A stretch of DNA of 64,000 bases from Octopus sinensis (taxonomy: Eukaryota). A program made the translations under genes and the position numbers. The DNA is taken from NCBI RefSeq assembly GCF_006345805.1, contig NC_042999.1, forward strand, positions 47,554,001 through 47,618,000. Direction: 5' to 3'. How positions within the stretch are numbered: position 1 is the first letter of the stretch; each line of letters opens with the position of its first letter. The notes below the pieces were generated by a model. That model ran no database searches. It was given only the letters and a program-made list of their open reading frames with translations, and had not been told where the DNA came from. Of the stretch, positions 761 through 64,000 are shown piece after piece.

Positions 761-942
761 GTTTGTTTACATAAAAAACATCTCTTTAAGGTGTTTGGTA
801 TTTGGAAGGGAATCCAGACGAAAAAATGTCTGAAGAATATTACAAAATTTAAAAAAAAAATTTTTTTTTCCTTCATAAGGACATAATTTTTTAAAGAAAG
901 ACCGGTTTCGCATTTAGCTTTTCAAATTTCTTGTGACGTTAT

Positions 943-1550
943 GTGGGTTCCACGGGACTATCCCTCAGACGTAGATGCACACTGCATCGACAACAGATTG
1001 CATTCCCTGAATATAGAATGATACCTTTTAGTGAGCACATTGAGAAATGCGCAAAGCAACTACTACCACAATTTTTAATCTTTCCATTCTACCAATGTGC
1101 TTTCGGATCATCAACACAAGTTAGACTAAACAAGGAAACATTCTTCATTGAAAAGTACAAGCCCAGACTCAACCATGCGAACATACTGATACAGAGAAAT
1201 TCACATTAAGGGAAAAGGAAAAAAAAAATTAAGCGATTATCTCCCTTACACCGGAAGAAATCACCCACTACCTTCCCTTATTTAGAACTCTCCGGAGCAT
1301 AAACACAAGGATAACTCTATTCAACATAAACATAACGTCACAAGAAATTTGAAAAGCTAAATGCGAAACCGCTCTTTCTTTAAAAATTATGTCATTATAA
1401 AGGAAAAAAAAATTTTTTTTTAATTTTCTAATATTCTTCAGACATATTGACGCAAATATATATATTTTTTAACATATAAGCCTTCTGTCGTTTTTTCACT
1501 CTTTACTATTTTTTATATATTCACCCACGTGCTTTCACAAACCAACTTTC
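943..1550 (+). repeat. 5' pseudo-LTR of PLE (includes a duplicated endonuclease C-terminus)
   Basis: Near-identical to 4873-5472; ORFs 943-1209 and 4873-5139 encode the same peptide with few substitutions. Confidence 0.95.
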
Positions 1551-1569
1551 TTATCTATATATTATACAC

Positions 1570-2937
1570 GTGGGACCGAAAATGCCACAGAAGACCAACA
1601 CCTCGGATAAAACCTTAAATGAGGACATACTGAAAGAACTGAAAAATATTAATACACAGCTTCTTAACCTGAACAACAAAATCGAGGAATCAAACTTACT
1701 CGCCCGGGAAAGTAAAAGCAATGAAGATACAACTCGCTACACTGACCAGGTTAGTAAGGATTTGCAACTGTTATACACAACACTAAATTCAATTTTCATC
1801 AACAAATCCGAAAATAATACACACGCACCAAATGAAACACAGCAGGACATCATACGCACCCAAATTAACCCAGCAAAAAGAAAAATAGGAAACATTTGGA
1901 ATACTAACCTGCACAACAGAAAACTCGCCTTCTGGAACATGATAAAAAATTCCAACAAAGCAGATATTTACGAGGGATGGATAAACTCAACACCAATTAT
2001 CCTCCCACGCAAATTCCAGATAAAATTAATTCCTAACGAGCCTGACGGACAGAGATCTATTAGGGAAAAGTCAGCTCTGTTCAATTTTAGATCAGAAATA
2101 GAGCTTCTAAGGCTCAGGGCCTCCACAAATGAGGAAAAATTTAAAAGCATAGACGAGGAGATGCACAATATAATACTGAAACATACCGAGGGACAACCCC
2201 TTGAAAATACATTAGATCATTGGAAGGATACCTGTGAAAAAGAAGAGAGAAATTCTCTCCTACGCTGGGAGAAAAACACGGACTTCTTCCAAAAATATAG
2301 TGAAACTTTCAAAAATGAATTGGGTACAAATAATCCCTTCCTTAAGAAAATTACAATAAATAAAAAAGAAAAACCAAACAACCCACGAACAACCCCCAAC
2401 TATCCTCCATACACTAAAAACAGAAATCACCCACAACCAACCTTTGCAAACCACGCAAGACTTAACAGGGAACTAGCTGACAGAGGACGCGTCTATGAAA
2501 TAAATTACACCAAAAACAGAACACACCAACAACATCCTAATACCAGACCCAACCACCATACAGCACAAAACGACACTAGAATAAGAAATACACCACACAC
2601 AAATCGCTACTACCCCATGAACCAAAATTACTGGTCCCCACTAAACACAAGACAAACGCAAAAAAACACTATGTCAAGCAACATCCCACATACAAGCAGT
2701 TCGAAACAAAAATAATTCCCATACAGAAATTTTACACACACCACAAACAATAACAACCATAGATTCCCTCACACACAGAACGATCGGGGGCAACAATACC
2801 ACCACTCCCTCGACCAAATACCACACAACCTCACAGACAACTCATACAAACAAAATTACACCCAACATTTTTTAGCCAGGGACCAGGGACACCAGGACAC
2901 AGGCTGGAACCTAGTAATAAGGAAAAACCGAAGATAA
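1570..2937 (+). pseudogene. PLE ORF1, orphan protein with coiled-coil-like N-terminus and N/T/H/P/Q-rich tail
   Basis: 381-aa ORF (ATG at 1582) directly after the pLTR. The same frame stays open past a single TAA (2713) to a stop at 2935-2937. Confidence 0.7.
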
Positions 2938-5139
2938 TCAATCTTTCAACCAAACCTCTTTCTAGCATAAAAATTGACATCCTCTCAAAAGGGCTCAAGT
3001 TTACACCAACTCCACACAGAGCCAACCTAAATGAAATCAAGGATAATATAACAGAATTTTGCAGAAAATTAAGACTAGCAGAAGCATAAACCAGTTTCAA
3101 TACTGAAGATGAATCACTAGTCAAGAACAAAAGTGAACACATCCCACACAGAGGAAGAAATAAAGATCTTGACGAATTCTGTAACCACATTGAGAACTTC
3201 CCCTACCATACTATACATAAACAGAAAGCTAACTCAAATTTTAACACTACACAATGGAAAGAACTGATAGAACTTCAAAATGATGAGGATATAACCATTA
3301 AGGAAGCAGACAAGGGAAATGCAGTTGTAATAATGGATACATCATACTACAGAAATCTTGTAATTTCCTTGCATGATGACGACCTACATTATGAAAAAAT
3401 TACCAACTACACCCCACAAAAGATAACGGAAACTCTATCTTCACTAATTAAAACCCATGAAAAGGAACTAACAACCAAAGAGATTGACTTCCTAACAAAC
3501 TTTAAATGCAAACCTAGCCTTTTCTATGGTCTGCCAACAATTCATAAAAGTCAAATTATAAATGAAACCATTAAAAAATCACCAAAGACATACATACACA
3601 CACCTAACCCGGGGGACCTAAAACTACGACCCATTGTAGCTGGCCCAACCTGTGAAACACACAGACTAAGTCTACTTATGGACATCCTCCTGAAACCCTT
3701 CCTTAAACATATCGATAGACATATCAGAGATGACTTAGATATGTTAAACCACCTTCCAAAAAAAGCCAAGGAAGAAACAATCCTGGTTTCATTTGATGTA
3801 GTCAACTTGTATACCAGTATACCTCATAATTATGGACTGGAGGCAATACAATTCTGGTTAGACCAATTTCCGGAAGAAATACCAAAAAGGATCAGTAAAG
3901 AATTCATTACTAAATCAATTGAATTCATCCTACACAATAACCACTTCATGTTTGACAATACATTTTACCGTCAAAAATCCGGAATTGCTATGGGTACAAG
4001 GGCAGCACCAGTCATTGCGAACTTAACAATGGGATACATGGAAATAATCATTTACCAGGAATCTTTATCAATCTTTGGAAACCCCTCTCTCAATACATAA
4101 AAGAGAACTGGAAACGATTCTTAGACGATTGTTTTATTCTCTGGAATGAAAACACAGATAAACTCCTAAAATTTAAAAACCTATTGAACAGCATAAACCC
4201 AAATATACAGTTCACAATGGAATACAATCAAAAGGAGCTCCCGTCCTTAGATATACTAATTAAAAAAATTAACCTTAAAATAGAAACAGACATTTTCTAC
4301 AAAGCCACAGACGCCAAACAATACCTTCTCTTTAATTCATGCCACCCAAGACACACTAAAGCAAACATCCCCTTCAACCTTTCAAGAAGGATATGCACAG
4401 ACATTACCCAGCTCAACTCATAGAGGATGGGATCAGACGTGCAAAAGAAATCAACATAGAAACTTTAAGAAAAGTTCAACACCACAACACACCTTCCCCG
4501 AAAATACTACCTTACATATCTACATACAACCCCAGAAACAAAGAAGCCTTCACCATCATCACCCAGAATTTACCAATACTTCATAAAAACCCCAAATTAA
4601 AGGAAATTCTAAACATACACCAAATCATTAAAAGCTACAAACAGCCTAAATCACTTAAAAAGATTCTCACAAAGGCAAAATAGTCTTCTGAAATTACGGA
4701 TGCAAAAGTAAAAAAATGTGGTAGATCGAACTGTGCAACATGTCCTAACCTGCTAGAAGGATCAGAATTCCTCTTTAAAGAGGGACAGAAATTCAAGATC
4801 AAATCTAACTTTCCTTGTGCCTCTGAAAATATAATTTATGTCATAAAATGCTCGGGCTGCCACCAAGACTACGTGGGTTCCACGGGACTATCATTCAGAC
4901 GTAGATGCACACTGCATCGACAACAGATTGCATTCCCAGAATATAGAATGATACCTTTTAGTGAGCAATTTGAGAAATGCGCAAAGCAACTACTACCACA
5001 ATTTTTAATCTTTCCATTCTACCAATGTGCTTTCGGATCATCAACACAAATTAGACTAAACAAGGAAACATTCTTCATTGAAAAGTACATGCCCAAATTC
5101 AACCATCCGAACATACTGATACAGAGAAATTCACATTAA
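2866..5139 (+). pseudogene. PLE reverse transcriptase + GIY-YIG endonuclease ORF, disrupted
   Basis: PLE RT motifs and FLDD. Stops at 3087 and 4681, frameshift near 4090, apparent deletion near 4400. Confidence 0.92.
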
Positions 5140-5472
5140 GGGAAAAGGAAAAAAAATTTTAAGCGATTATCTCCCTTACACCGGAAGAAATCACCCACAA
5201 CCTTCCCTTATTTAGAACTCTCCGGAGCATAAACACAAGGATAACTCTATTCAACATAAACATAACGTCACAAGAAATTTGAAAAGCTAAATGCGAAACC
5301 GGTCTTTCTTTAAAAATTATGTCATTATGAAGGAAAAAAAAAATTTTTTTTAATTTTCTAATATTCTTCAGACATATTGACGCAAATATATATATTTTTT
5401 AACATTTAAGCCTTCTGTCGTTTTTTCACTATTTTTATATATTCACCCACGTGCTTTCACAATCCAACTTTC
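4873..5472 (+). repeat. 3' pseudo-LTR of PLE
   Basis: Direct repeat of 943-1550, followed by (TA)n. Confidence 0.95.
5272..5310 (+). ncRNA. Minimal type I hammerhead ribozyme motif (U3:A8 variant) in pLTR
   Basis: aagaaa(t)-TTGAAAA-gc-taaat-gc-GAAAC-cg-GTC-tttctt. Copies at 1342-1380 (one substitution) and 894-932 (minus strand). Confidence 0.65.
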
Positions 5473-5591
5473 ATATATATATATATATATATATATACAT
5501 ACATACATACATACATGCATACATACATACATGCATATATACAAATATACGTACGTGTACATATATATATATATATATATATATGAATACA

Positions 5592-8296: not shown

Positions 8297-8364
<68 letters not shown>

Positions 8365-8365
8365 A

Positions 8366-8779
8366 GGCGCAGGAGTGGATGTGTGGTAAGTAGCTTGTTT
8401 ACCAACCACATGGTTCCGGGTTCAGTCCCACTGCGTGGCACCTTCGGCAAGTGTCTTCTACTATAGCCTCGGGCCGACCAAAGCCTTGTGAGTGGATTTG
8501 GTAGACGGAAACTGAAAGAAGCCCGTCGTATATATGTATATATATATATGCGTGTGTGTGTTTGTGTGTCTGTGTTTGTCCCCCTAGCATTGCTTAACAA
8601 CCGATGCTGGTGTGTTTACGTCCCCGTCACTTAGCGGTTCGGCAAAAGGGACCGATAGAATAAGTACTGGGCTTACAAAAACAATAAGTCCCGGGGTCGA
8701 GTTGCTCGATTAAAGGCGGTGCTCCAGCATGGCTGCAGTCAAATGACTGAAACAAGTAAAAGAGTAAAAGAGTAAAGAG
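8366..8779 (+). mobile_element. tRNA-headed SINE, family A
   Basis: A-box-like TGGATGTGTGG, B-box-like GGTTCAGTCCC, internal (TA/TG)n and AAAGAGT tail. Homologous to 34931, 43089, 63137 and 10965(-). Confidence 0.9.
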
Positions 8780-9014
8780 AATATGTATGTCTGTGTATGT
8801 GTGTGTGTGTGTGTTTTGCGGGAGTTGTGTGTGCGTGTCTGTGTATATTTGTATCTGGGCACACCAACAATAAAGTATTCACATTGTACGAAACAGAACG
8901 CACGATTAGCAATCCATTGAATTTGTTGCACAGTAAGTGAACAAATGGAAATCTGTTGAGTAACTGTAAGGCTGCTACTTCTCCTAGAACTTCAACTACT
9001 GCTAACGATAATAA

Positions 9015-10016: not shown

Positions 10017-10964
10017 TATGAATATATAATATGATAATAACAATTGTTTGGATTACTTTGACAGCTACAAGTACTCACCATTTTGGTGGGATGTATCTAT
10101 TAAACAGTTGCTATTGTAATGAGATCTGAACAATGAAAGTTCGACAGGAACCGGACACTAAAATTTTGTTGTATTGCCTAAAGATTTTGCTGCCCAGAAT
10201 GCAATAAAATGTTCTGTAATTAGGATACAACAAGAGATAGCGGTATAAATTTGCTTTACCCATTAATCCACTTCAATATATGTAGGAAGCTCTTGTACAA
10301 GACAAAGCAGAAAGTGCTAATAATGAAATATTTATAAATTCTAATAATAACTCTAAAAAGCTAAATGCAATATATATGTCTATTTTCAAATAAAATGCAA
10401 ACAAAAAACTGGGTTTCATTATATTCTCAGCTGAAATCTCATTTGCGATATCTATACTGTTTTCTTTTTTTTAAGTATACATATGTGTGTGCATGTGTGT
10501 GTGTGTATGTATGTGTATGTTTGCATGTTTTTTGTGTGCGTTCATATACTTTTTGTAAACATATTTATATATATATATATATATACATGTATGTGTATGC
10601 TTATGTGCTTTTTTGCTTTTATGTGTGTTTATATTCCATGGGAAGTGAATGCTTATACGACTGTACTAATAAAGTGCAATTCATTTATGTGAGAATCTGT
10701 GTATTTGATGAATGGCAGTATGCTAATACTCTGTCTCTGTTCAGGGAGCGGGTAATCGATCGCTATTCAGTCAGTAATAAAGGCTCAAAGTACTCAGAAT
10801 TATTTTTCATTTATAACTACAGTGAGAAAAAAAAATTGTCTTTTGCTGGCTCTACATTTCTCAGTGAGACAGAATTATGCTTTTCTCAAAAACGCCTGCT
10901 GTATGGTTGACAGACAACCAATTTAACACCTTTTAGTGCTTCTATAAAGTTCTCTGTTCTCCTT

Positions 10965-11400
10965 TATCTTTTACTTGCTTCAGTCATTAGACTGCTGTCA
11001 TGCTGTGAAACCACCTTGGAGATTTTTTTATGGGATTAATCGACCCCAGAAACAATTTTCTTTAAGTACTGGTACTTATTCTTTGGGTTACTTTAGCCGA
11101 ACTGCTAAGTTTCGGGAACGTAAACACTCTACCATCGATTGCCATGCGATGGTTGAGGACAAACACAAAAACGATAATGCAACACACGCACACGCACTCA
11201 CGAATACACACACTCACACACACATTTATATATATATATACGACGGACTTCTTTCAGTTTTCGTCTACTAAATCTACTCACAAAACTTAGTTCTGCCCGA
11301 GGCTACAGTAGAAAACATTTATCCAAGCTGTTACGAAGGGGGACTGAACGCAGAACCACTTGGTGTGGAATCAGGCTTCGCACCAAACAGCCTACGGCTG
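10965..11400 (-). mobile_element. SINE family A, diverged copy
   Basis: Reverse complement of the 8366 element (cttctttcagttttcgtctac, actggtacttattc). Confidence 0.85.
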
Positions 11401-11429
11401 TTCATACACATATTCATATAAATATTCTT

Positions 11430-11656: not shown

Positions 11657-13367
11657 CTAGTTAAGAGTAGCAACATCACACTAGATAAAACCAATGAAAT
11701 AAAAGAATTAGACCAAAGCCAAACTTACAAATACTTAGGAATCCATGAACTAGATAAGACACAACACACACAAATGAAAGAGAAAATAAAAAATGAATAT
11801 TATAGACGAGTAAGATCAATACTAAAAACAGAGCTCAATGCTAAAAACAAGATAATAGGTATTAACGCTTTAGCTGTCCCAGTTATAAGTTACAGCTACA
11901 ATATCCTTAACTGGACACGAAATGAACTGACCAAAATAGATAGGGAAACAAGAAAAAATAAGGACAGGATCTAGGATGCATCATCCAAAATCTGACACAG
12001 AAAGACTATATATACAACGTATAGAAGGTGGCAGAGGCCTTATTCATCTGGAAAACTACTACAAAATAACCACCATAGGACTGCAAAAATATCTACTTCA
12101 GAAGAAAGGAAAACTGATACAAATAGCGGCAAAACACGAGCAAAACAAAAAAATTGTTCTCAGTCGTTAAGGAAGCTGAAAAATACAAACAAGAAATCAT
12201 ACCACCTAATAAATATGAAGAAGAAGAAGAAAAAGTTGAAGAAACAACAAAAGCTATAAAACAAATGAAATCCAAAGTAAAACTAGAACAGCAAAGAATC
12301 GTGATAAGACGATGGCAAGAAAAGCCCCTTCGTGGTAAATACTGGACTAAACTAAATGCAAAAGAAATAACAAAGAAAATCCCAGCAATGGTTGAGAAGC
12401 TCAGGACTCAAAGCAGAGACAAAGGGATTTTAATTGCAGCACAAGTCCAAATATCTCCCCACCAGAAATTACCAAAAACATGTAATGAAAAGAAATATAA
12501 CAAGTAACTGCAGAATATATGGAGATGGACAAGAAACAATAAATCATATTATCTCTGGCTGCCCAGTCCTGGTTAAGAAGGAATATATTCACAGACATGA
12601 CAGAGTTGGAACCTACATACACTGGAAGCTATGCCAACATTATGGAATAACAACAGAAAAAAGTTGGTATAGGTACACACCAGAAAAGGTCACAGAAAAC
12701 GAGAAAGCAACCATACTCTGGGATATGCCGATACACACAGATAGAGAAATTAAGGCCAACAGACCAGATATAGTTGTCAAAGATCATGAAGAAAAAAATG
12801 CTTTCTAATTGATGTATCAATACCGGCAGATGACAACGGTTCTCTAGATGAAATGGAAAAACGTTCAAAATACAAAGACCTGGAAATAGAGGTAACCAAA
12901 ATGTGGAATCTAAAAAAAGAAACAATTCCTATCATAGTAGGTGCATTAGGCATGATAAAAAAATATTCAGACAAATACATAACAAAAACACCAGGACTTA
13001 CAAACACATATAACATGCAGAAAATTGCACTACTAGGCACTGCACACATCCTACGCAGAACACTTTCCATACAATAACCATCAGAGCATCACAACAAATC
13101 ACAGCACATACCTAAGGCACACAGAGCTGCGCTCGGTAATGAAGTGAAAGCACGCTTTAAAAATAAAACTACTAAAAATAATAATAATAATAACATCGAA
13201 AAATACCTTAGGAATGAGAAACCTGGTTCGAAATTTCCTCCAGACACCTAAAGAAGGCTGGGGGGTATATCAACCGAATCGTTGTGTTAACAACAAACAA
13301 GATGAGGACAAATATCCGTCGGATGTAAATAATGTACATAATTCCTCATCTCTTAAATATAGAACTG
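11430..13367 (+). mobile_element. Composite insertion: inverted hammerhead-like repeat + R4/Dong LINE 3' fragment + hammerhead-like repeat, 13-bp TSD
   Basis: Arms ~11430-11588 and ~13190-13340 are inverted copies. TATAAATATTCTT occurs at 11417-11429 and 13368-13380. Confidence 0.75.
11657..13190 (+). mobile_element. R4/Dong-clade non-LTR retrotransposon, 5'-truncated (RT C-terminus, CCHC, restriction-like endonuclease), frameshifted
   Basis: YKYLGI, HHPKSDTERLY..EGGRGL, CRIYG..ETINHIISGC..YIHRHD, NRPDIVV, LIDVSIP, KYKDL, IPIIVGALG; ends in (TAA)n. Confidence 0.9.
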
Positions 13368-20708: not shown

Positions 20709-22325
20709 CAGTGGCTTGCAAAAGTCTACACTCTCTTTGAAAATTTATACATTTTGTATAATTTAACAGGGAACAGCACATTTTTTCAATTCCGATGATT
20801 GTTAAATAATAAGCAGATCCATCACACTTTTCTTTGATATAAAAATTACATTTTAAAAATTTCACACTGATTCTTAAAATCATATAACTTACAAAAAATG
20901 TCTTTGGAAAAGTCTACACCCACCAGATATTATACTGTGTTATCAGGTAGTTTGTCATTGATGTATACAATCCAAAACAATCAAAAGTGACATGTGCCTT
21001 CTACCATAACAAACTTGGCTAGTCTAGTATTTTGCTATATAAGGTGATTTAACTGCCTACAAAATTATTCACCACGTGGTTTTTTTGGTATGTTGTTCTT
21101 TGAACTCTGACTGTAAACACAGGGTGTCCAACTCGGGAAAGAAAATGGGCAAGCCTCTGTCACAGGAACTTAAAAACCTCATTCAAAAGTACAATGAAAA
21201 TAATGGCTATAAAAAGATTGTAAAAGCTTTAGAATTGCCCCTAAGCACAAAACCATTGCTGCCCTACAAAGATCTGGGAGACCGAACAAAATTACCAGAA
21301 GGAATATAGTCAAAACTGATCCGGTAGGCAACATCCAACCCTAGTACAACCCTGGAAGACTTGAAAGCTTCAGTTTCCAGTACTGGGACAGATATCAATG
21401 CATCTACAATTTCCACAGAATTACACCGGTCTGGGATGCAAGGGAGGGTAGCTAGAAGAAAAAAGCTCTTTCTGAAGCCTATACACAAGCAAGCTTGGCT
21501 AAACTTTGCCAAAAGTCACATTAATGATTCCATGACCATGTGGTGAATGAGACCAAAGTCGAATTATTTGGAAATAATACAAACGCTACTTTTTGCGGAA
21601 AAAAGGTACTGCTCACCAACCTCGTTACACCGTCCCCACTGTAAAGCATGGCGGTGGCTCGGACACGCTTTGGGCTGTTTTTCAGCTGCAGGGCCTGGAG
21701 AGTTGGTAACCATCTAAGGTATCATGGACAGTGTCATCTCAAGCACCAAGAAATATTGGAGGCAAACCTGCTGAAGTCTGCAAGAGCTCTGCGCTTGGGT
21801 CGCAATTTCAAGTTTCAATAAGATAATGACCCCAAGCATGTGTCAAAAAACACTAAAACTCGGTTTGCTAGCAAGAAAATCATAGTTTTGGAGTGGTCCA
21901 GCCAGTCTCAATCCTATAGAAACTCTATGGCGAGATCTAAAGCTGTCTGTACACCGACGTTCCTTATCCAATATGACATAGTTCGATAAGTTCTGCCATG
22001 AAAAATGGCAAAAACTGTCAGCAGACCACTGCAGCAAGCTCCTGGAAGTCCATCCGACGCGTCTGTAGGCTGTATTTGACGCGGCAGGATCATCCACAAA
22101 ATATTAGCGGAAGGCATTCCAAAGGGGGTGTAGACTTTAAAAAAGACATCTTTCAAAAATGTTTAAGTATCAGTTTTAAATGTTTCAAATGCTTTTTTCT
22201 TTTATGTTTTAAATGAATGTGTTATAGATCAACAAATTATTAGAGATTAAAATATGTATTGTTCCTATCAAAATAAACAAAACACATCCAGTTTCCGAGG
22301 CGGTGTAGACATTTGCAAGGTGCTG
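20709..22325 (+). mobile_element. Tc1-family DNA transposon (IR/DR type), full length, transposase pseudogene ~21145-22130
   Basis: TA|cagtggcttgcaaaagtctacac ... gtgtagacatttgcaaggtgctg|TA. Internal repeats of aaagtctacacc. Peptides GYKKIVKAL, GRVARRK, ETKVELFG, PTVKHGGGS, DNDPKH, VLEW. Confidence 0.92.
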
Positions 22326-22988
22326 TATTTCTACCAATAGAATATGACTTTTACTTTAACGATACTGATATAACCGATTTTGAAAGTTTTTGAAATTTAT
22401 TTTCTAACGATAACAAAGCTTTGGTTTAATCTCAGTGTATTGTAGTTTAAAACTTGAAGTAGAGAAATGTTGTAAACAAAATTTAGTTATTTTCTTAAAC
22501 AGTATAGTTTGCACCTGTTAGTCTAGAATTCGATTTGTCCGGTTTGAAAATATACTTATATTATCTACATATGTTATTTAGACATAAGCCGAATATAGCA
22601 ACATTCTGACTGTATGGTAAGGATTAATTTGATTAAGTCCCTTTGCATTATCAAATATTCTTATGCGTCCTCAATTCGTATGTGAAATACAAGAACTGCG
22701 TTTTATTCCCACTGATGAGATACAACAGCTAAATTTTGTTTACACCTTTTCTCTACATCAAGTTTTAAACTACAATACACTGTTGAAACCAAAGATTTGT
22801 TATCATTAGAAACTTAATTTTAAAAACTTTCAAATCGGTTATATCAGTATCGTTAAAGTAAGTCATATAATTTTTAATAGAAATACAGTGCCTTGCAAAA
22901 GTCTACACATCCTTGGAAACTGGATGTATTTTACTTATTTTGATAGGAACAATTGATATTTTATTGCCACTGATGAGATACAACAGCT
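22258..22988. repeat. ~230-bp inverted duplication (22258-22486 vs 22729-22953); second copy flanked by a 30-bp direct repeat
   Basis: Arms align by eye. ttttatt(c/g)ccactgatgagatacaacagct at 22701-22730 and 22959-22988. Confidence 0.85.
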
Positions 22989-32714: not shown

Positions 32715-34930
32715 TTCACAATTCAGTCAATATAATATTTTTTAATAATAAATGTAATGTATATATATTTTTTAATATTCTGCAGTAATTCGAGGAAAAA
32801 TAATGTTATCGTATTATGCTATAATGTAACCGGAGCCACTCTGATACCAACATTATATACAACTTTTTGTATATCCTCCATAAGTAATGTTGAAACGGAT
32901 GTTTACAGATATAATGGTAAAAATAGAATATAGACTACATAACTGTAAGTTGATGTGAATAATATGCCTACTCGTATACAAAATTAATTCCGATAAACGG
33001 AGGAAAAATTTTTTTTCCGTAAGTGCAATAGAATTAATATAAAACAGGATTTCAACTTCCAGCTTTTGCTTTATTCTGAACAATAAATAATAAATTCGAT
33101 ATTCGGAAATCTTTTACTGGTTAAAAAATTATTGAAAAGAAAGTCGCCAGGAACTCCGGGAATAAAATTCTAATCAATCTACCACCAAGAATGATTTAAT
33201 GATATGTGAGTAAAGGAATAATAAAGTGTTGAGCACTTTTATTGTGACGTTTATTTACATCTTTACTGGATTTGTTGTTTCTTAAAGATGTCCATTTATC
33301 GATAGCATGCTTTTATAGAATGAATAATTAAAACAGTATGAATTAAAGTATTTCATCTTGTGCATAAACATATCCTTAATATATTCCGTATATTTTGGTT
33401 ATTCTCAATTTTTAACAGAATTACGCTTTATTGAATTAGACTTTCGAATGATAGGAAGGGAAATCAAATTCACGAAAACCAAGGCAGAATTTGTGACGTT
33501 TCTTTAAAACCTAAATGTATGTGCCGAGCGTTTTTATTTATACGTGATACCATTCAATTAGTGAATCATGTGCAATCGATTACACCCCAACATAAATTGA
33601 AGGTCGCATTCACATATAGGCGAAAATATATTAATCCTTTACAATTAAAAAGAACAAGACTCATTCGACATACATTCATAATATGAATTTAAATTGAGTC
33701 GATGAAATATTTTATCGTATTTATATATTCATATCGCAGAGGGTTCTAAATTACAACATTTAACTTAATTTTCATCAATTGGAAAATAACAATATATAAT
33801 TATTTCAGTAATTATAACACTTTCAATAGAGATACATAGAATTAGGGAATGTTATATTCGAATCTAAGTGGGAATTCTTTTAATTTTCATAATAAAGAAA
33901 AATCAGTGACCATATGAATGTATGATATGGAAATCGACGAACAGAATTTTACATTAATACTTGATTTAGATGTAGAATATTTTCACCATAAACAATAAGG
34001 GTGTACAGCTCGTAATCATATTTCAATTCGTTGGTTATATTTGATACAATTATAAGATACCATCAACGCTATGTAATTGGTTCCGCAGTAATATGGACTT
34101 TTGAGGAAATCATAAGCAAAACTCTTTCGTGGTTTCTTTTGTAGAACCATCTGATGTAGAGAAATAATGTCTGTATTCTTTTGTACTCTTGGTAATTTCG
34201 GCAGATGTTTCTCTGCCGACACTAGTAAAAATAATGCGAATTATTTACTATGAAAGGTCTTGTCAACTGATGTTGAAATATGTCTTACCAAAGTAGGACA
34301 TTTTTGAATATCAACGGCGTGCCGATCATAAATAATTATGAAGAGAAGGTTCTTTGGCTTTTTATATATATCTCTTAAGCTTATTCCACATTACGTCCTT
34401 TATATGCTACAGAAGCACAGCAGAATATACGATGAAGTATTCATAAAATCATGCACACACAACAAAACATACACGCACGGAAATAAAACTCATTTGACAC
34501 ATGGAAGTATTTTATGTCGAAAGGATGAAAATGTTGGAAATAGTTATCTGAATAATCTCGGCCTTCGCTAACATATAAGGTGATAGTCAACTAATTAATC
34601 TCATTCATTGCTTTATATCTATTTTCGAAATACTCTGAGTTCTGTGTATCAAGCTAATATCGTCAATTTTGTTAGTTATAAAACTTTATATTCATTTTTC
34701 AAGAATAGCAGAAATTATTGGTCACGTAATGCAATAGATGTTCTTCCTGTGTTAGAATATGCCACAACATCTGACAAAAAGAATAATCGAGGAGGTAAGA
34801 ATTGTATGAGTATTGAGAAATAGGATATCTTTGTAACTGACGCACAACTAAGTCAACGAATATTTTCTCTAACTTTAATTCAAAGAGTATACATTGTCAA
34901 GGACTTTGTAACCAAAATATACATACAGCA

Positions 34931-35350
34931 GGCGCAGCTATGGCTGTGTGGTAACAAGCTTGCTTCTCGACCACACAATTTGGGATTCAGTCCGATTACA
35001 TGGTGCTTTAGGCAGGTATCTTCTACTATAGCCTCGCGTCGACCAAAGACTTGTGAGTAGATTTGGTAGACGGAAACTGAAAGATGCTCGTCGTACATAT
35101 GTATATATATATACATATATAGCTATGTGTGTGTGTACGTTTCTTTGTGTCTCTGTTTGTCCCTCCACCACAGCTTGACAACCGGTGCTACTCTATTTAC
35201 GTCTCTGTAACTTAATGGTTTGGTAAAAGAGACCGATGAAATAAGTACCAGTCTTTAAAAAAAATGCCCATAGTTCGATACGTTCGACTAAAAATACTTC
35301 ATGTCGATGCCCCAGCATGGCTTCAGTCTAATGACTGATACAAAAGTAAG
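34931..35350 (+). mobile_element. SINE family A, diverged
   Basis: Collinear with 8366-8779. Confidence 0.9.
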
Positions 35351-35397: not shown

Positions 35398-35814
35398 TCC
35401 TATTTCTTCACTGCCCACAAGGGGCTACACACAGAGAAGACCACCAAGGACCGACAAACGGAGTAAGTCGATTATATCGACCCCAGTGTGTAATTGGTAC
35501 TTATTTAATCGATCCCGAAAGGATGAAAGGCAAAGTCGATCTCGGCGGAGTGTGAACTCAGAACAAAACGGCAGACGAAATACCTATTTTTTACTATCCA
35601 CAAGGGGCTAAACACAGAGAAGACAAACAAGGACAGACAAACGGATTAAGTCGATTGTATCGACCCCAGTGTGTGACTGGTATTTAATTTAATTGACCCC
35701 GAAAGGATGAAAGGAAAAGTCACCCCGGCGGAATTTGAACTCAGAACGCAGCGGCAGATGAAATACCGCTAAACATTTCGCCAGGCGTGCTAATGTTTCT
35801 GCCAGCTCTGCGCC
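35398..35814 (-). mobile_element. tRNA-headed SINE family B with duplicated 3' half
   Basis: Head ggcgcagagctggcagaaac..gagttcaaattcc. Body cctttcatcctttcggg..aagtaccag resembles the Meta-SINE core as recalled, not verified. Tail is present twice. Confidence 0.85.
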
Positions 35815-42400: not shown

Positions 42401-43088
42401 ATTTTTGTCTTTTAGGTAGGAATGGCTGATTTTAGCATGATAAGAATTAATGAGTCTTAAGATATTTGATGATTGTATTGAAGATAACGCGAAAATAAAT
42501 TTTATGTGGCTTCACAATGTTTTTTGTTTTTATTTAGAATACAATTTAAACGTACAATAATTATTCGACATGAAGAAATATAATAATGATATTCATCTTC
42601 AATTAATCAATGGTATTTTTTAAAAATTCAATTTTTTAATCAAAACTAAGAGATAAGAATATATATTCTCTGCTACCATATAGATATATGTAACTATATG
42701 TTTGACAAAATATCTATAACCTTATCACTTTCGAAAGGTGCTCAATAATTACTGACATTGAAAGTAGTTTTATTTATGTATTGTAAACTTTGTATGATCA
42801 TTTGGTCATAAAGGAACAAGTCTATTGTGTTTCTAAGACATATTATCAAAATGTAGCATCGTTGTAGAAAGAAGTCGAAGTTATCAAACAGTAGGAGCCG
42901 GATTCATTTGTTTATCAGCCAAAATACCACGAAAAAGTAATTGGTGGTACGGGAAGAAATCAATAAAAATTCAGACTTTTTTGAGTTTAACATGTCAGAA
43001 CATGACCATTAAAGACTACTTAATCAGAAGATGAAGAGGGAGCTCTATGCGACAGTTTGACGTCCACTATGTGATAGTAAAATTCCCA

Positions 43089-43495
43089 GGCGCAGGAGTG
43101 GCTGTGTGGTAAGTAGCTTGCTAACCAACCTCATGGTTCCGGGTTCAGTCCCACTGCCTGGCATCTTGGGCAAGTGTCTTCTGCTATAGCCCCGAGCCGA
43201 CCAATGCCTTGTGAGTGGATTTGGTAGACGGAAACTGAAAGAAGCCTGTCGTATATATATATATATATATATGTTTGTGTGTCTGTGTTTGTCCCCCTAG
43301 CATTGCTTGACAACCGATGCTGGTGTGTTTACGTCCCCGTCAATTAGCGGTTCGGCAAAAAGAGACCGATAGAATAAGTACTGGGCTTACAAAGAATAAG
43401 TCCCGGGGTCGATTTGCTCGACTAAAGGCGGTGCTCCAGCATGGCCGCAGTCAAATGACTGAAACAAATAAAAGAGTAAAAGAGTAAAAAGAGTA
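43089..43495 (+). mobile_element. SINE family A, young copy
   Basis: Highly similar to 8366-8779 along its full length. Confidence 0.93.
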
Positions 43496-44758
43496 TACAC
43501 ATTACAGTCTTCAAAACGTATACATACATTTGATACCTCAACTGCAGTTGCACTAATTAAAATAAGCACGGAATAGCTACGGTTGTTTACTGCTTTATTA
43601 TGTGTACTTGAATAAATTCAGAACCCTTCCGAGTTTACATAACAATATATGTAGATAAATTAGATAATAGAATCGGATGGCGAATCTAAGCTGCACAAAG
43701 TGTATAAATGGACTGCAACGTAAACGAGAAAAATATGATTCTGTGTACATCAAGTAAATTATCAGCAGTTTATTGTTTTCCTTATACAATAAAGACCATG
43801 TATTTCGTATTATTAGCTAAGCAGGCACATGAAACGAATACGTTGGCAGAGTATCGCTCTCAAAATGATGACATTTCCACATAAACTGAAGTACTATAAT
43901 ATACCAGCTAACTATTGAAACTCAATAAGTTGCTTCCCGCCGCCCCACGACCACCAGATTATCTAACTTACATCGGTACACATAAACACACATATTTACA
44001 CGTAAGGATAATGAACTGTAATGGACATTGTATGAAAAAGTAACATTTTAAGCCTGCTTCGTCATCGTGTGTGACTCGTCGATATTTCTAAGAAAATGGA
44101 AACGGCTTTGAAAACAACCTTTTACTTTCTCAATGCTAAATATAACATACTGAGTTCTAAATGAATGAATAAATGCGATACCTTGTAAAAATATATTAAT
44201 GACAAATACACAACCAATGACACATACACGTGCATACATACATATGTAAACATTATGGCAGGATTTTTTGGGGGGGAATTTGCTTCGTGACCACGAGGAC
44301 CCAGCTCCGATGCCACAGAGGACCACTTTAAGTAAAGTGAGATCAACCTGACAGAAACTGAACAAGAAAGATAGTTAGGTGGATTTTATCCATAAATCTA
44401 AAAGTAACGCTTTGGCTGAAATGCTGTGCCATATCAAATTCCTATTAAGATATTTGCCTGTGGAAACCTCATCAGCATCCACGTTAATCCACATACATTT
44501 AATTCAATGTGTAAGTCAACTGAATCGTCAAAATCAAAGTACATCTCACATTGCCCTGCGATCAGGCCGACACCTGCTGTGCATCAATTCAGAAAACGTT
44601 GATTTTATGGTGAGAGTGGGAGAGAGCGAATGACTATGAACAAAATATTTGAGTAGGTGGTTCAGCAAAAACTGAACGCTCATACGTTGTGATCGAGGGG
44701 AGAGTCCGCCATATACTGGTAAGTAGAGAGACAGATAAATAGAATAGAATAGAAAAGA

Positions 44759-46649: not shown

Positions 46650-46802
46650 GTCTATCTCTATCTCTCTCTTTATATATATATATATATAATATATATATAT
46701 ATAATATATATATATGCGTGGTTCTGTGGTTAGCAGCTTGCTGCCCAAGCATATGACTTCGGGTTTAGAAGTCTTCTAATATATCCTTATATATATATAT
46801 AT

Positions 46803-47477
46803 ATAACAATAATAAATCTCTGAGCGAGGTATAAACAGTAACTGCTCTATAATATAAGCGGGATCAGCCATCTGAATGTGGCTAGGGACAGGGCTGGGTG
46901 GTGGTGGTGTTACTGATGCATTTAGCCCCAGGCGACTATCGATGTCACCAGAAGAGCCGACACCCGGTGAGGCTGATCTCCCTTTGCAGGCTAGCAAGGA
47001 CACCGTGATGGTGTCGGCTCTTCTGGTGACGTCGATAGTCGCCTGGGGCTAAATGCATCAGTAACACCCCCACCACCCCGCCCTGTCCCTAGCCACATTC
47101 AGATGGCTGATCCCGCTTATATTATAGAGCAGTTACTGTTTATACCTCGCTCAGAGATTTATTATTGTTATCGAACGGATTTTCTACGCCAGTGACTGTG
47201 GTTACTGTGAAAATCTATATATATCTGGCCTGTACAGGAAGTCCCTCGGCGAAGAACGGTGCTTGTCATACGCTGACAAGAGGCAAATACCTCGAAACCA
47301 GTCCGTGTGTAGCATCCGTATCTTCGGTGAGGCTGATCTCCCTTTGCAGGCTAGCAAGGACACCGTGATGGTGCCGGCTCTTCTGGTGACGTCGATAGTC
47401 GCCTGGGGCTAAATGCATCAGTAACACCCCCACCACCCCGCCCTGTCCCTAGCCACATTCAGATGGCTGATCCCGCT

Positions 47478-47486
<9 letters not shown>
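46803..47486 (+). mobile_element. Retrozyme-like cassette: 360-nt unit, 1.45 tandem copies, with 162-bp 5' inversion, in (TA)n
   Basis: Direct repeat 46965-47126 / 47325-47486; inverted repeat 46803-46964 / 47010-47171; GC-richer than flanks; no credible ORF. Confidence 0.75.
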
Positions 47487-47563
<77 letters not shown>

Positions 47564-63000: not shown

Positions 63001-63136
63001 GTGAGCGTCAATGAATTTACACCGGTTTCTAGTAAATAACAGTTAAAATTATCGCAAGTCACAGCTGATCGTCTTAATCCTGAATGAGTTGATTGATAAT
63101 GTAGACGTAGTCAAATGATGCTTAAAAACTAGGATA

Positions 63137-63300
63137 GGCCTAGGAGTGGCTGTGTGGTAAGTAGCATACTTACGAACCACATGGTTCCGGATTCAGTCCC
63201 ACTGCGTGTCACCTTGGGGACGTGTCTTCTACAATAGCCTCGGGTCAAACAAAGCCTTGAGAGTGGATTTGGTAGACGGAAACTGAAAGAAGCCCGTTGC

Positions 63301-63362
<62 letters not shown>

Positions 63363-63560
63363 CTATTTGTCCTTCCAACATCGCTTGGCAACCGATGCTG
63401 GTGTGTTTACGTCCCCGTGACTTAGCGGTTCGGCAAAAGATACCGATAGAATGATTACAAGGCTTACAAAGAGTAAGTTCTGGGGTTGATTTGCTCGAAT
63501 AAAGGCGGTGCTCCAGCATGACCACAGTCAAATGCCTGAAATAAGTACAAGTGTAAAGAG
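63137..63560 (+). mobile_element. SINE family A
   Basis: Collinear with the 8366 and 43089 copies. Confidence 0.92.
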
Positions 63561-64000
63561 AGAGATAGATGAATCCATGACAGCTGTGAAATCTCAGCTG
63601 ATACTTTTATTTGAAAATATCTGACACAAGGCATATCGTTGTCAACATCAAATAATATTTAGATTGAGTTCACTATTGCAAACCAGCGAAAACAGCTGGA
63701 AACATAGAAAGAACGAGATTTGTATTAGCCTGCAGATCTCAAAAGAAATTGTATCCCTTAATGTATACATGTACACAACCATTTGATACCTCCCTTCTTC
63801 GAACGTATTTTTATTTCTAAATTAATAATATAAATCTTTTTTTATGAATTATTACTTAATCACGTCACCAAATTTATCACTAGGAGTCTGCGATAAATGA
63901 GGCTTAATAGATTTAAAAAGCGGTCAAATTACACGGGAATTTCATCCAGAGCCTCAGTTTGAAATATGATGTTCTCCTGCCAGTAACATATACTTTTGCA

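What the first reader, a model, noticed from the sequence alone, without database searches (positions are those of the whole stretch)
46803..47486. 360-nt noncoding unit in 1.45 tandem copies plus inversion: candidate circular-RNA retrozyme
Seen: monomer 46965-47324 is followed by a 162-nt re-copy with one mismatch and preceded by a 162-bp inverted arm. It is GC-richer than its flanks and has many local hairpins (gacacc-gtgat-ggtgtc; agcca..tggct; cttgtca-tacgc-tgacaag). One hammerhead-like motif is present: cg-GCGAAGA-[branched stem]-GAAAC-ca-GTC-cg (47247-47305), with a non-canonical 5' core and weak stem I. Known: non-LTR retrozymes are few-hundred-nt tandem hammerhead repeats that yield circRNAs. 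Inference: more-than-unit-length copying is what RT on a circular template would leave, and near-identity implies a recent event.
Basis: partly seen in the sequence, partly recalled or inferred. Interest (0 to 1): 0.75.

Follow-up and report, generated by a model that had tools for sequence, protein, structure and literature searches.

The report
Hammerhead-bearing mini Penelope element insertion
This is one insertion of an abundant 360-base, non-coding repeat that carries a hammerhead ribozyme motif and has the ends typical of Penelope-like retrotransposons, whose enzymes likely copied it in; this kind of element is already known, and a circular RNA form is untested.

Summary
The repeats are real: a 360-bp unit (46965-47324), a 162-bp re-copy (1 mismatch) and a 162-bp inverted arm (3 mismatches), between (TA)n tracts. 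The hammerhead was mis-parsed. The real type I motif is at 47267-47309, and this copy has a C3·A8 core mismatch. In contigs of four public runs, relatives mostly carry U3-A8 or C3-G8, a compensatory pair, so the ribozyme is conserved family-wide. The family is abundant and ORF-less. Most copies are 3' stubs (13-54 times the summed depth of the hammerhead part) that stop at a fixed end. A 45-nt 'tail' lies at only one outer end of this insertion. Partial tandem, inverted 5'-truncated arm, tail and (TA)n target are the published anatomy of Penelope-like element (PLE) insertions. A decayed coding PLE of the same anatomy lies 42 kb away but is unrelated in sequence. Verdict: a non-autonomous PLE derivative, the class called animal non-LTR retrozymes. 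The 1.45 copies do not show a circular template, and circular RNA is untested. The scan noted similar PLE-type mini-insertions in other genomes. New family, known kind.

The parts
46789..46802 (.). Left (TA)n target tract
   Evidence: Sequence. No target-site duplication can be discerned inside the microsatellite.
46803..46847 (-). 45-nt 'tail' at the outer end of the inverted arm (= 47127-47171)
   Evidence: 100% match to 47127-47171; absent from the right end of the insertion. Family depth falls about 15-fold across 47166-47177 and loose ends pile up behind 47167.
46848..46964 (-). Inverted, 5'-truncated copy of the unit's terminal part (pLTR-like arm)
   Evidence: 117 nt, 3 mismatches to 47010-47126; joined head-to-head to 46965.
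46965..47126 (+). First direct copy of the terminal part (5'-truncated upstream unit of the partial tandem)
   Evidence: It starts 21 nt downstream of the predicted cleavage-site equivalent.
47127..47171 (+). Internal copy of the tail; likely the segment between two RT start sites; shared with other repeat families
   Evidence: table 7: many contigs join 47127/47129/47134 from unlike upstream sequence (18, 87 and 28 in X2; 102 and 37 in X3; 59 in X5; 13 in X1). Role inferred from PMC11167929.
47172..47245 (+). Short non-coding linker where an autonomous PLE would carry its ORF
   Evidence: Contigs run tail to linker to hammerhead in all four runs laid (table 8). The 94-codon open frame 47128-47409 has no Pfam match and no credible homologue.
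47246..47330 (+). Long stem closing the hammerhead (extension of stem I)
   Evidence: Fold of 47240-47330: z -4.62, 0 of 200 shuffles.
47267..47309 (+). Type I hammerhead: 6-bp stem I, 4-bp stem II, 2-bp helix III with a 2-nt loop; core C3·A8 mismatch in this copy; predicted cut 47303/47304
   Evidence: covariation in relatives.
47325..47486 (+). Second direct copy of the terminal part; tail-less 3' end of the insertion, 183 nt past the predicted cut
47487..47561 (.). Right (TA)n target tract

Best explanation
This is one insertion of a multi-copy, ORF-less 360-nt hammerhead-bearing unit with PLE-type ends, likely reverse-transcribed into a (TA)n tract by a Penelope-like element's RT-endonuclease acting in trans, probably from an uncut linear read-through transcript of a tandem donor. 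Shown: the arrangement, the (TA)n flanks, the family's abundance, its fixed 3' end, the excess of 3' stubs, the tail shared with other families, and the U3-A8/C3-G8 covariation. Inferred steps: (1) a tandem donor is transcribed; (2) a PLE protein binds near the terminal part and tail; (3) its GIY-YIG nuclease nicks both strands of AT-rich DNA; (4) the right-hand nick primes cDNA from the tail-less start (47486) for 522 nt across one hammerhead, and the left-hand nick primes a second cDNA from the tail end (47171) for 162 nt, or the first cDNA folds back on itself; (5) the two are joined head-to-head at 46964/46965. This copy's hammerhead is predicted to be inactive (C3·A8 mismatch, no second motif to dimerise with). 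I put the identity as a non-autonomous PLE derivative at about 0.9; the confidence given is for that identity together with a linear template.
For: Anatomy: searches match the description in PMC8557442 (partial tandem, adjacent inverted 5'-truncated copy, 30-40-bp tail at one end, (TA)n bias) and PMC3846280. In vitro, a PLE protein nicks and extends both strands, starts RT at two internal sites that delimit the tail, and does not need hammerhead cleavage (PMC11167929). Family data (4 of 24 listed runs laid): 94, 1815, 1598 and 684 contigs laid. Summed depth at 47034-47105 is 12.7, 53.6, 24.9 and 19.2 times that at 47262-47309. Loose ends behind 47167 number 7, 70, 71 and 48, with agreement of only 0.50-0.59, i.e. 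unlike flanks; 24 in X2 behind 47171 run into (TA)n. Overlapping contigs with depth in the hundreds to thousands link tail, linker and hammerhead in X2 and X3. Core: U3 share plus G8 share is 0.995 (X2), 1.05 (X3), 0.89 (X5), 0.82 (X1), and in X2 the depth with C3 equals the depth with G8 exactly (1596.7). U3-A8 is a known PLE hammerhead variant (PMC4209133). All three arms share minority alleles at 47115 and 47121, as expected from one template lineage. C3·A8 also appears to occur in a sister contig (X1 record 6, by subtraction) and in about a tenth of X5 depth, so a probably uncuttable version existed beyond this copy. A coding PLE with the same anatomy lies at 823-5472 of the window.
Against: No coding partner sharing the tail was found. 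The PLE in the window is unrelated in DNA sequence (score 20; 156 of 500 shuffles as high). No listed contig spans the whole unit, so the 360-nt continuity is tiled, not read. No junction from the end of the stretch back to its start was listed, so tandem organisation at other loci was not directly seen. Contig depth is not copy number, and tables 3, 7 and 8 hid 9, 156 and 4187 rows. The tail is 45 nt against the published 30-40. The tail-less end at 47126 is seen in the shown rows only for a variant subfamily (11 contigs in X2, 3 in X5). Conservation of the core pair means the ribozyme is selected, which suits a cleavage-and-circle cycle equally well. Inactivity of C3·A8 is inferred from C3G and G8C mutants; two searches found no paper on G8A.
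Confidence: 0.62

Rival explanations
1. Same element and same PLE machinery, but the template is a 360-nt circular RNA made by double hammerhead cleavage and ligation. RT starts at the fixed internal site and runs 1.45 turns.
For: Size and hammerhead geometry (6-bp stem I, 4-bp stem II, short helix III) match canonical retrozyme motifs better than minimal PLE motifs. The core pair covaries. The circular fold is stable (z -3.5 against 100 shuffles). Mussel retrozymes of about 350-390 nt make circles. The two direct turns differ at 1 of 162 and share T at 46968/47328 where all covering contigs read G.
Against: The same partial-tandem anatomy occurs in PLE clades without canonical hammerheads and in the 3.9-kb coding PLE of this window. 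The paired fraction of the circle (0.61) equals that of shuffles. This copy's core is mismatched and the mismatch seems shared with relatives. Eight of nine Xenopus dimers tested did not cleave.
Confidence: 0.28
2. Just the end pieces (pLTR) of a coding PLE, brought together here by a one-off internal deletion; no independent mini family.
For: Most copies are 3' stubs, which would look the same for a coding parent. Other sequences share the tail.
Against: Contigs cross from the tail through the linker into the hammerhead at high depth in runs of three organism labels and with several subfamily variants. The share of laid records running on into unlike sequence is 0, 0 and 0.01 in the three large runs (0.18 in X1). 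A second, shorter tail-to-hammerhead variant exists (joint 47166 to 47269, one contig in X3).
Confidence: 0.07
3. A DNA-level local duplication and fold-back inversion of an older single repeat, or an assembly artefact.
For: The locus sits among microsatellites; hairpin-forming DNA is prone to rearrangement; a 5-nt match (CACCG) lies 4 nt before the re-entry point of the inversion (noticed after the fact).
Against: The inverted arm ends within a few bases of the family-wide terminus (47167-47171) and both outer ends abut (TA)n. The arms differ at 1 and 3 sites, unlike a collapsed assembly. The neighbouring PLE shows the same design.
Confidence: 0.03

Closest known systems
Insertion anatomy of endonuclease-bearing Penelope-like elements (PMC8557442 passages; PMC3846280 passages; PMC11167929 parts 1-2 of 4)
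   Same: Partial tandem forming direct terminal repeats, adjacent inverted 5'-truncated copy in head-to-head order, tail at one end only, (TA)n target, type I hammerhead in the terminal part, strong 5' truncation.
   Different: No RT/GIY-YIG ORF; the unit is 360 nt instead of 3-4 kb; the tail is 45 nt; the mobilising partner is unidentified.
Animal non-LTR retrozymes (PMC7229834 parts 2-3 of 6 and Discussion; bioRxiv 10.64898/2026.07.22.740005 parts 1-3 of 5, supplements not seen)
   Same: Non-coding unit of a few hundred nt, about 50% GC, type I hammerhead with short helix III, many copies, co-occurs with coding PLEs; the preprint argues such units are non-autonomous PLE derivatives.
   Different: This locus has one hammerhead, not two or more consecutive ones, so it fails the preprint's 'active' criterion. 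Long arrays, expression, cleavage and circles are not shown. The parts read do not describe tails or inverted arms for retrozymes ('inverted' occurs 0 times in PMC7229834).
PLE hammerhead with U3-A8 core (Schistosoma Cercyon variant, PMC4209133 parts 1-2 of 4)
   Same: U3-A8 in place of C3-G8; very short helix III that implies dimeric action.
   Different: Both core types coexist as subfamilies of one mini element. Stem sizes are canonical rather than the 7-8-bp stem II of minimal motifs. Loop III (CA) is not palindromic.

Membership tests
Non-autonomous PLE derivative | Partial tandem (direct terminal repeats) | tested here: met
   162-nt direct repeat at 360 spacing.
Non-autonomous PLE derivative | Inverted 5'-truncated copy adjoining the 5' end | tested here: met
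   46803-46964.
Non-autonomous PLE derivative | Optional tail at one end; fixed 3' termini across copies | tested here: met
   Tail on the inverted arm only; terminus at 47165-47171 in 4 of 4 runs laid; the tail-less terminus only partly visible.
Non-autonomous PLE derivative | AT-rich or (TA)n target | tested here: met
   Both flanks; loose ends in relatives are AT-rich or (TA)n.
Non-autonomous PLE derivative | No RT/endonuclease ORF | tested here: met
   3-7 stops in each of six frames; longest frame has no credible homologue.
Non-autonomous PLE derivative | Terminal sequence shared with a coding PLE | tested here: inconclusive
   No match to the one coding PLE in the window; other families share the tail but their sequence could not be followed; no genome held.
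Animal non-LTR retrozyme | Conserved type I hammerhead in a 150-450-nt non-coding unit | tested here: met
   core covariation. Rfam did not detect it.
Animal non-LTR retrozyme | Two or more consecutive units each with a complete hammerhead | tested here: inconclusive
   Not met at this locus (one motif, mismatched core); arrays elsewhere could not be seen in fragmented contigs.
Animal non-LTR retrozyme | Self-cleavage in vitro | not testable with these tools
   Needs a bench assay.
Animal non-LTR retrozyme | Monomeric circular RNA in vivo | not testable with these tools
   Only contigs were available; they cannot show ends, strand or circles.
Autonomous PLE | RT plus GIY-YIG ORF between the terminal repeats | tested here: not met
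   Only 198 nt lie between the direct repeats; no ORF match.
tRNA-derived SINE | tRNA-like head | tested here: inconclusive
   ARAGORN found 0 genes in the window and Rfam nothing at gathering score; decayed heads escape both.

The most novel reading that the evidence does not exclude
An abundant, ORF-less 360-nt family that is a true circle-making retrozyme and is integrated by the two-start-site PLE mechanism. Its junctions (tail, inverted arm, (TA)n) would be direct structural proof that PLE proteins mobilise retrozymes, with active U3-A8 and C3-G8 subfamilies, a C3·A8 natural control, and several mini families competing for one PLE protein through a shared 45-nt tail. Because the unit is short, long reads could settle whether PLE partial tandems come from circular or linear templates.
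Probability: 0.25. Interest if true: 0.55.

Novelty: new member of a known kind. Interest (0 to 1): 0.3.

Why it matters
The link between animal retrozymes and PLEs has been argued from shared hammerheads, co-occurrence and terminal-repeat similarity. This family adds insertion-junction evidence: a retrozyme-sized unit carrying the full PLE signature. It is a handy small model for the open question of whether PLE partial tandems are copied from circles, and the shared tail is a candidate cis-signal for PLE reverse transcriptase. As a class it is known, and the scan has met similar cases in other genomes.

Tried and rejected
No whole genome is held for this window, so copies could not be counted or aligned. 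Rfam found no ribozyme family: region scans at E up to 10 gave only miRNA-like and other sub-threshold matches and the whole window gave 0 at gathering score. No RNA holder listed: none of the 20 runs holding the stretch is on record as RNA; X1 is only guessed to be RNA, so its cover of all 30 bins is not used as evidence of expression. Exact 20-22-nt pattern scans found nothing in metagenome contigs, prokaryote genomes or viral contigs. The 94-codon open frame has a CxxC..YI stretch that recalled GIY-YIG; rejected, since Pfam gave 0 families and the single library hit (P0001, E 6e-9) is a 60-residue low-complexity repeat protein at 25% identity whose score is summed over repeats. A guess that helix III had decayed from a palindromic loop was dropped: no variant at 47299-47300 was among the rows shown. 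A GT donor at 46967/47327 suggested splicing; dropped because all covering contigs read G at 47328. The coding PLE in the window was tested as partner and shows no DNA similarity. The scan's index held no look-alike sequence and no notes on this genome. Literature searches showed no listing describing a cephalopod hammerhead repeat; the Octopus vulgaris repeat paper PMC13282606 has no mention of 'hammerhead' or 'ribozyme' in its main text. Repeat libraries (Repbase, Dfam) and paper supplements were not seen and may already hold this family. That the host is an octopus is my recollection from the SINE-like repeat and microsatellite load, not a tool result.

Full report
Observation. The arrangement is as described. 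A 360-bp unit (46965-47324) is followed by a 162-bp re-copy with one mismatch and preceded by a 162-bp inverted arm with three mismatches against 47010-47171. The monomer is 50% GC against 30-32% in the 1-kb flanks, and both outer ends run into (TA)n. The inverted arm includes 45 nt (47127-47171) that the right-hand end lacks. There is no other copy in the window.

The ribozyme. The motif is a type I hammerhead: stem I 47267-72 with 47304-09, core CTGACAA at 47273-79, stem II 47280-83 with 47290-93, then GAAAC-CA-GTC, with a predicted cut at 47303/47304. It was the only strict-pattern hit in 64 kb, and 0 of 20000 shuffles of the monomer gave one; the pattern was written after I had seen the sequence. 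The surrounding stem folds at z -4.62, while four other parts of the unit fold no better than shuffles. Rfam misses it. Position 8 is A opposite C3, a mismatch in a pair that is needed for cleavage (PMC11167929: C3G or G8C abolish activity, the double mutant partly restores it). The locus holds only this one motif.

The family. No genome is held. Twenty of 24 listed public runs, from 10 studies and five organism labels, hold the stretch or part of it; none is on record as RNA. I laid four (X1, X2, X3, X5; three labels) on 47010-47369. 94, 1815, 1598 and 684 contigs were laid, the largest class being 90-95% alike in each run. Summed depth over 47034-47105 is 12.7 to 53.6 times that over the hammerhead and collapses across 47166-47177. 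Loose ends pile up behind 47167 (7, 70, 71, 48 contigs) with agreement of only 0.50-0.59, which means many unlike flanks; 24 in X2 run into (TA)n behind 47171. A variant subfamily ends at the 47126 equivalent and runs into (TA)n (11 contigs in X2, 3 in X5). So most copies are 3' stubs with a fixed end. Many contigs join the 45-nt tail from unlike upstream sequence, so other families share it. Overlapping contigs with depth in the hundreds to thousands link tail, linker and hammerhead, which argues that the 360-nt unit is a family and not a local deletion. Limits: no listed piece spans the whole stretch, no wrap-around joint was listed, depth is not copy number, and 9, 156 and 4187 rows of tables 3, 7 and 8 were hidden.

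Core covariation. At 47273 many contigs read T and at 47278 others read G. The two shares add to 0.995 in X2, 1.05 in X3, 0.89 in X5 and 0.82 in X1; in X2 the depth with C3 equals the depth with G8 (1596.7, one contig). The family thus has U3-A8 and C3-G8 subfamilies, and U3-A8 is a described PLE hammerhead variant (PMC4209133). This is phased by arithmetic, not by reading single molecules. The remainder (X1 record 6, 4 differences in 122 from the window; about a tenth of X5 depth) appears to be C3·A8 like the window's copy. Variants in the stems (47262, 47307, 47313) keep pairing through G-U or A-U.

Mechanism. The anatomy is that published for endonuclease-bearing PLEs: partial tandem, adjoining inverted 5'-truncated copy, a 30-40-bp tail at one end, (TA)n bias (PMC8557442, passages; PMC3846280, passages). 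A purified PLE protein nicks and extends both target strands, starts reverse transcription at two internal sites that bound the tail, and inserts equally well with a dead hammerhead (PMC11167929, parts 1-2 of 4). Applied here as inference: one cDNA began at 47486 and ran 522 nt, a second began at the tail end and ran 162 nt (or the first folded back), and the two were joined head-to-head. All three arms share minority alleles at 47115 and 47121, as expected of one template lineage. The window also holds a decayed coding PLE at 823-5472: RT with the DKG motif and a C-terminal nuclease with a CxxxxCxxC linker, GIY-YIG by atlas features at 0.96 and weakly by Pfam (E 0.014), and 178 homologues at E 1e-20 or better, many with RT and GIY-YIG domains. 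It has a 628-nt direct repeat, a 122-nt inverted arm, U3-A8 hammerhead-like motifs in all three arms and a (TA)n end. It shows that the machinery and the design exist in this genome, but it is not the partner by sequence. Its Neptune/Nematis-type label rests on the linker motif; no tree was built.

Circle or line. More-than-unit length does not decide this. It is general in PLEs, including clades without canonical hammerheads, and is present in the 3.9-kb neighbour. For a circle: the size and canonical stem lengths, the selected core pair, and the precedent of mussel circles of about 350-390 nt (PMC7229834). For a linear read-through template: hammerhead-independent insertion in vitro, an apparently mismatched sublineage, and the low cleavage rate of tested dimers (1 of 9 in the 2026 preprint). 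I put it at about 0.62 linear to 0.28 circular.

Comparison with what is known. It works like a PLE insertion and fits the non-autonomous PLE derivative on five of six features tested, the partner being unresolved. It resembles animal non-LTR retrozymes in size and ribozyme, but two consecutive complete hammerheads, cleavage and circles are not shown. A 2026 preprint (10.64898/2026.07.22.740005, parts 1-3 of 5 read, supplements closed) already argues that such retrozymes are non-autonomous PLE derivatives. My nine literature searches showed no listing of a cephalopod example, but repeat libraries were not searchable, and the octopus host is recalled rather than tested. Earlier notes of this scan report similar PLE-type mini-insertions in other genomes; I did not check them and do not count them as support.

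Verdict. A real, previously unlisted-looking family of a known kind; interest 0.3. The useful additions are the corrected hammerhead, its core covariation, and junction evidence tying a retrozyme-sized unit to PLE integration.

Noticed in passing
window 823-5472 (+): Near-full-length, frameshifted coding PLE (RT with DKG motif, CxxxxCxxC linker, C-terminal GIY-YIG; Neptune/Nematis-type by motif) with a 628-nt direct repeat (940-1566, 4870-5489; 95%), a 122-nt inverted arm (823-944), U3-A8 hammerhead-like motifs at 1349, 5279 and 925 (minus), and a (TA)n end.
   Followed up: partly
window 1480-2715 (+): A 411-codon open frame (first ATG at 1583) upstream of the PLE RT frames, with an asparagine/threonine/histidine-rich end and no Pfam match; possibly a separate upstream ORF or long N-terminal region of that PLE.
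   Followed up: no
window 47127-47171 (table 7): At least two other repeat families join this 45-nt tail from unlike upstream sequence, and one X3 contig links the tail to the hammerhead through a shorter 27-nt linker: several mini families may share one cis-signal.
   Followed up: partly
window 22248-22486 and 22729-22963: A 240-nt inverted pair (87% identity) around a 240-nt spacer; looks like a MITE or transposon end.
   Followed up: no
window 35399-35767: Two tandem 183-bp units of a SINE-like repeat, which I recall from octopus genomes (recalled, untested).
   Followed up: no
window 8344-8784, 10950-11425, 34929-35344, 43088-43496, 63134-63563: Five copies of a roughly 420-nt interspersed repeat, 66-91% alike.
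   Followed up: no
window 12434-12808 (+): Weak zf-RVT match (E 2e-4, below cut-off), probably a LINE remnant.
   Followed up: no
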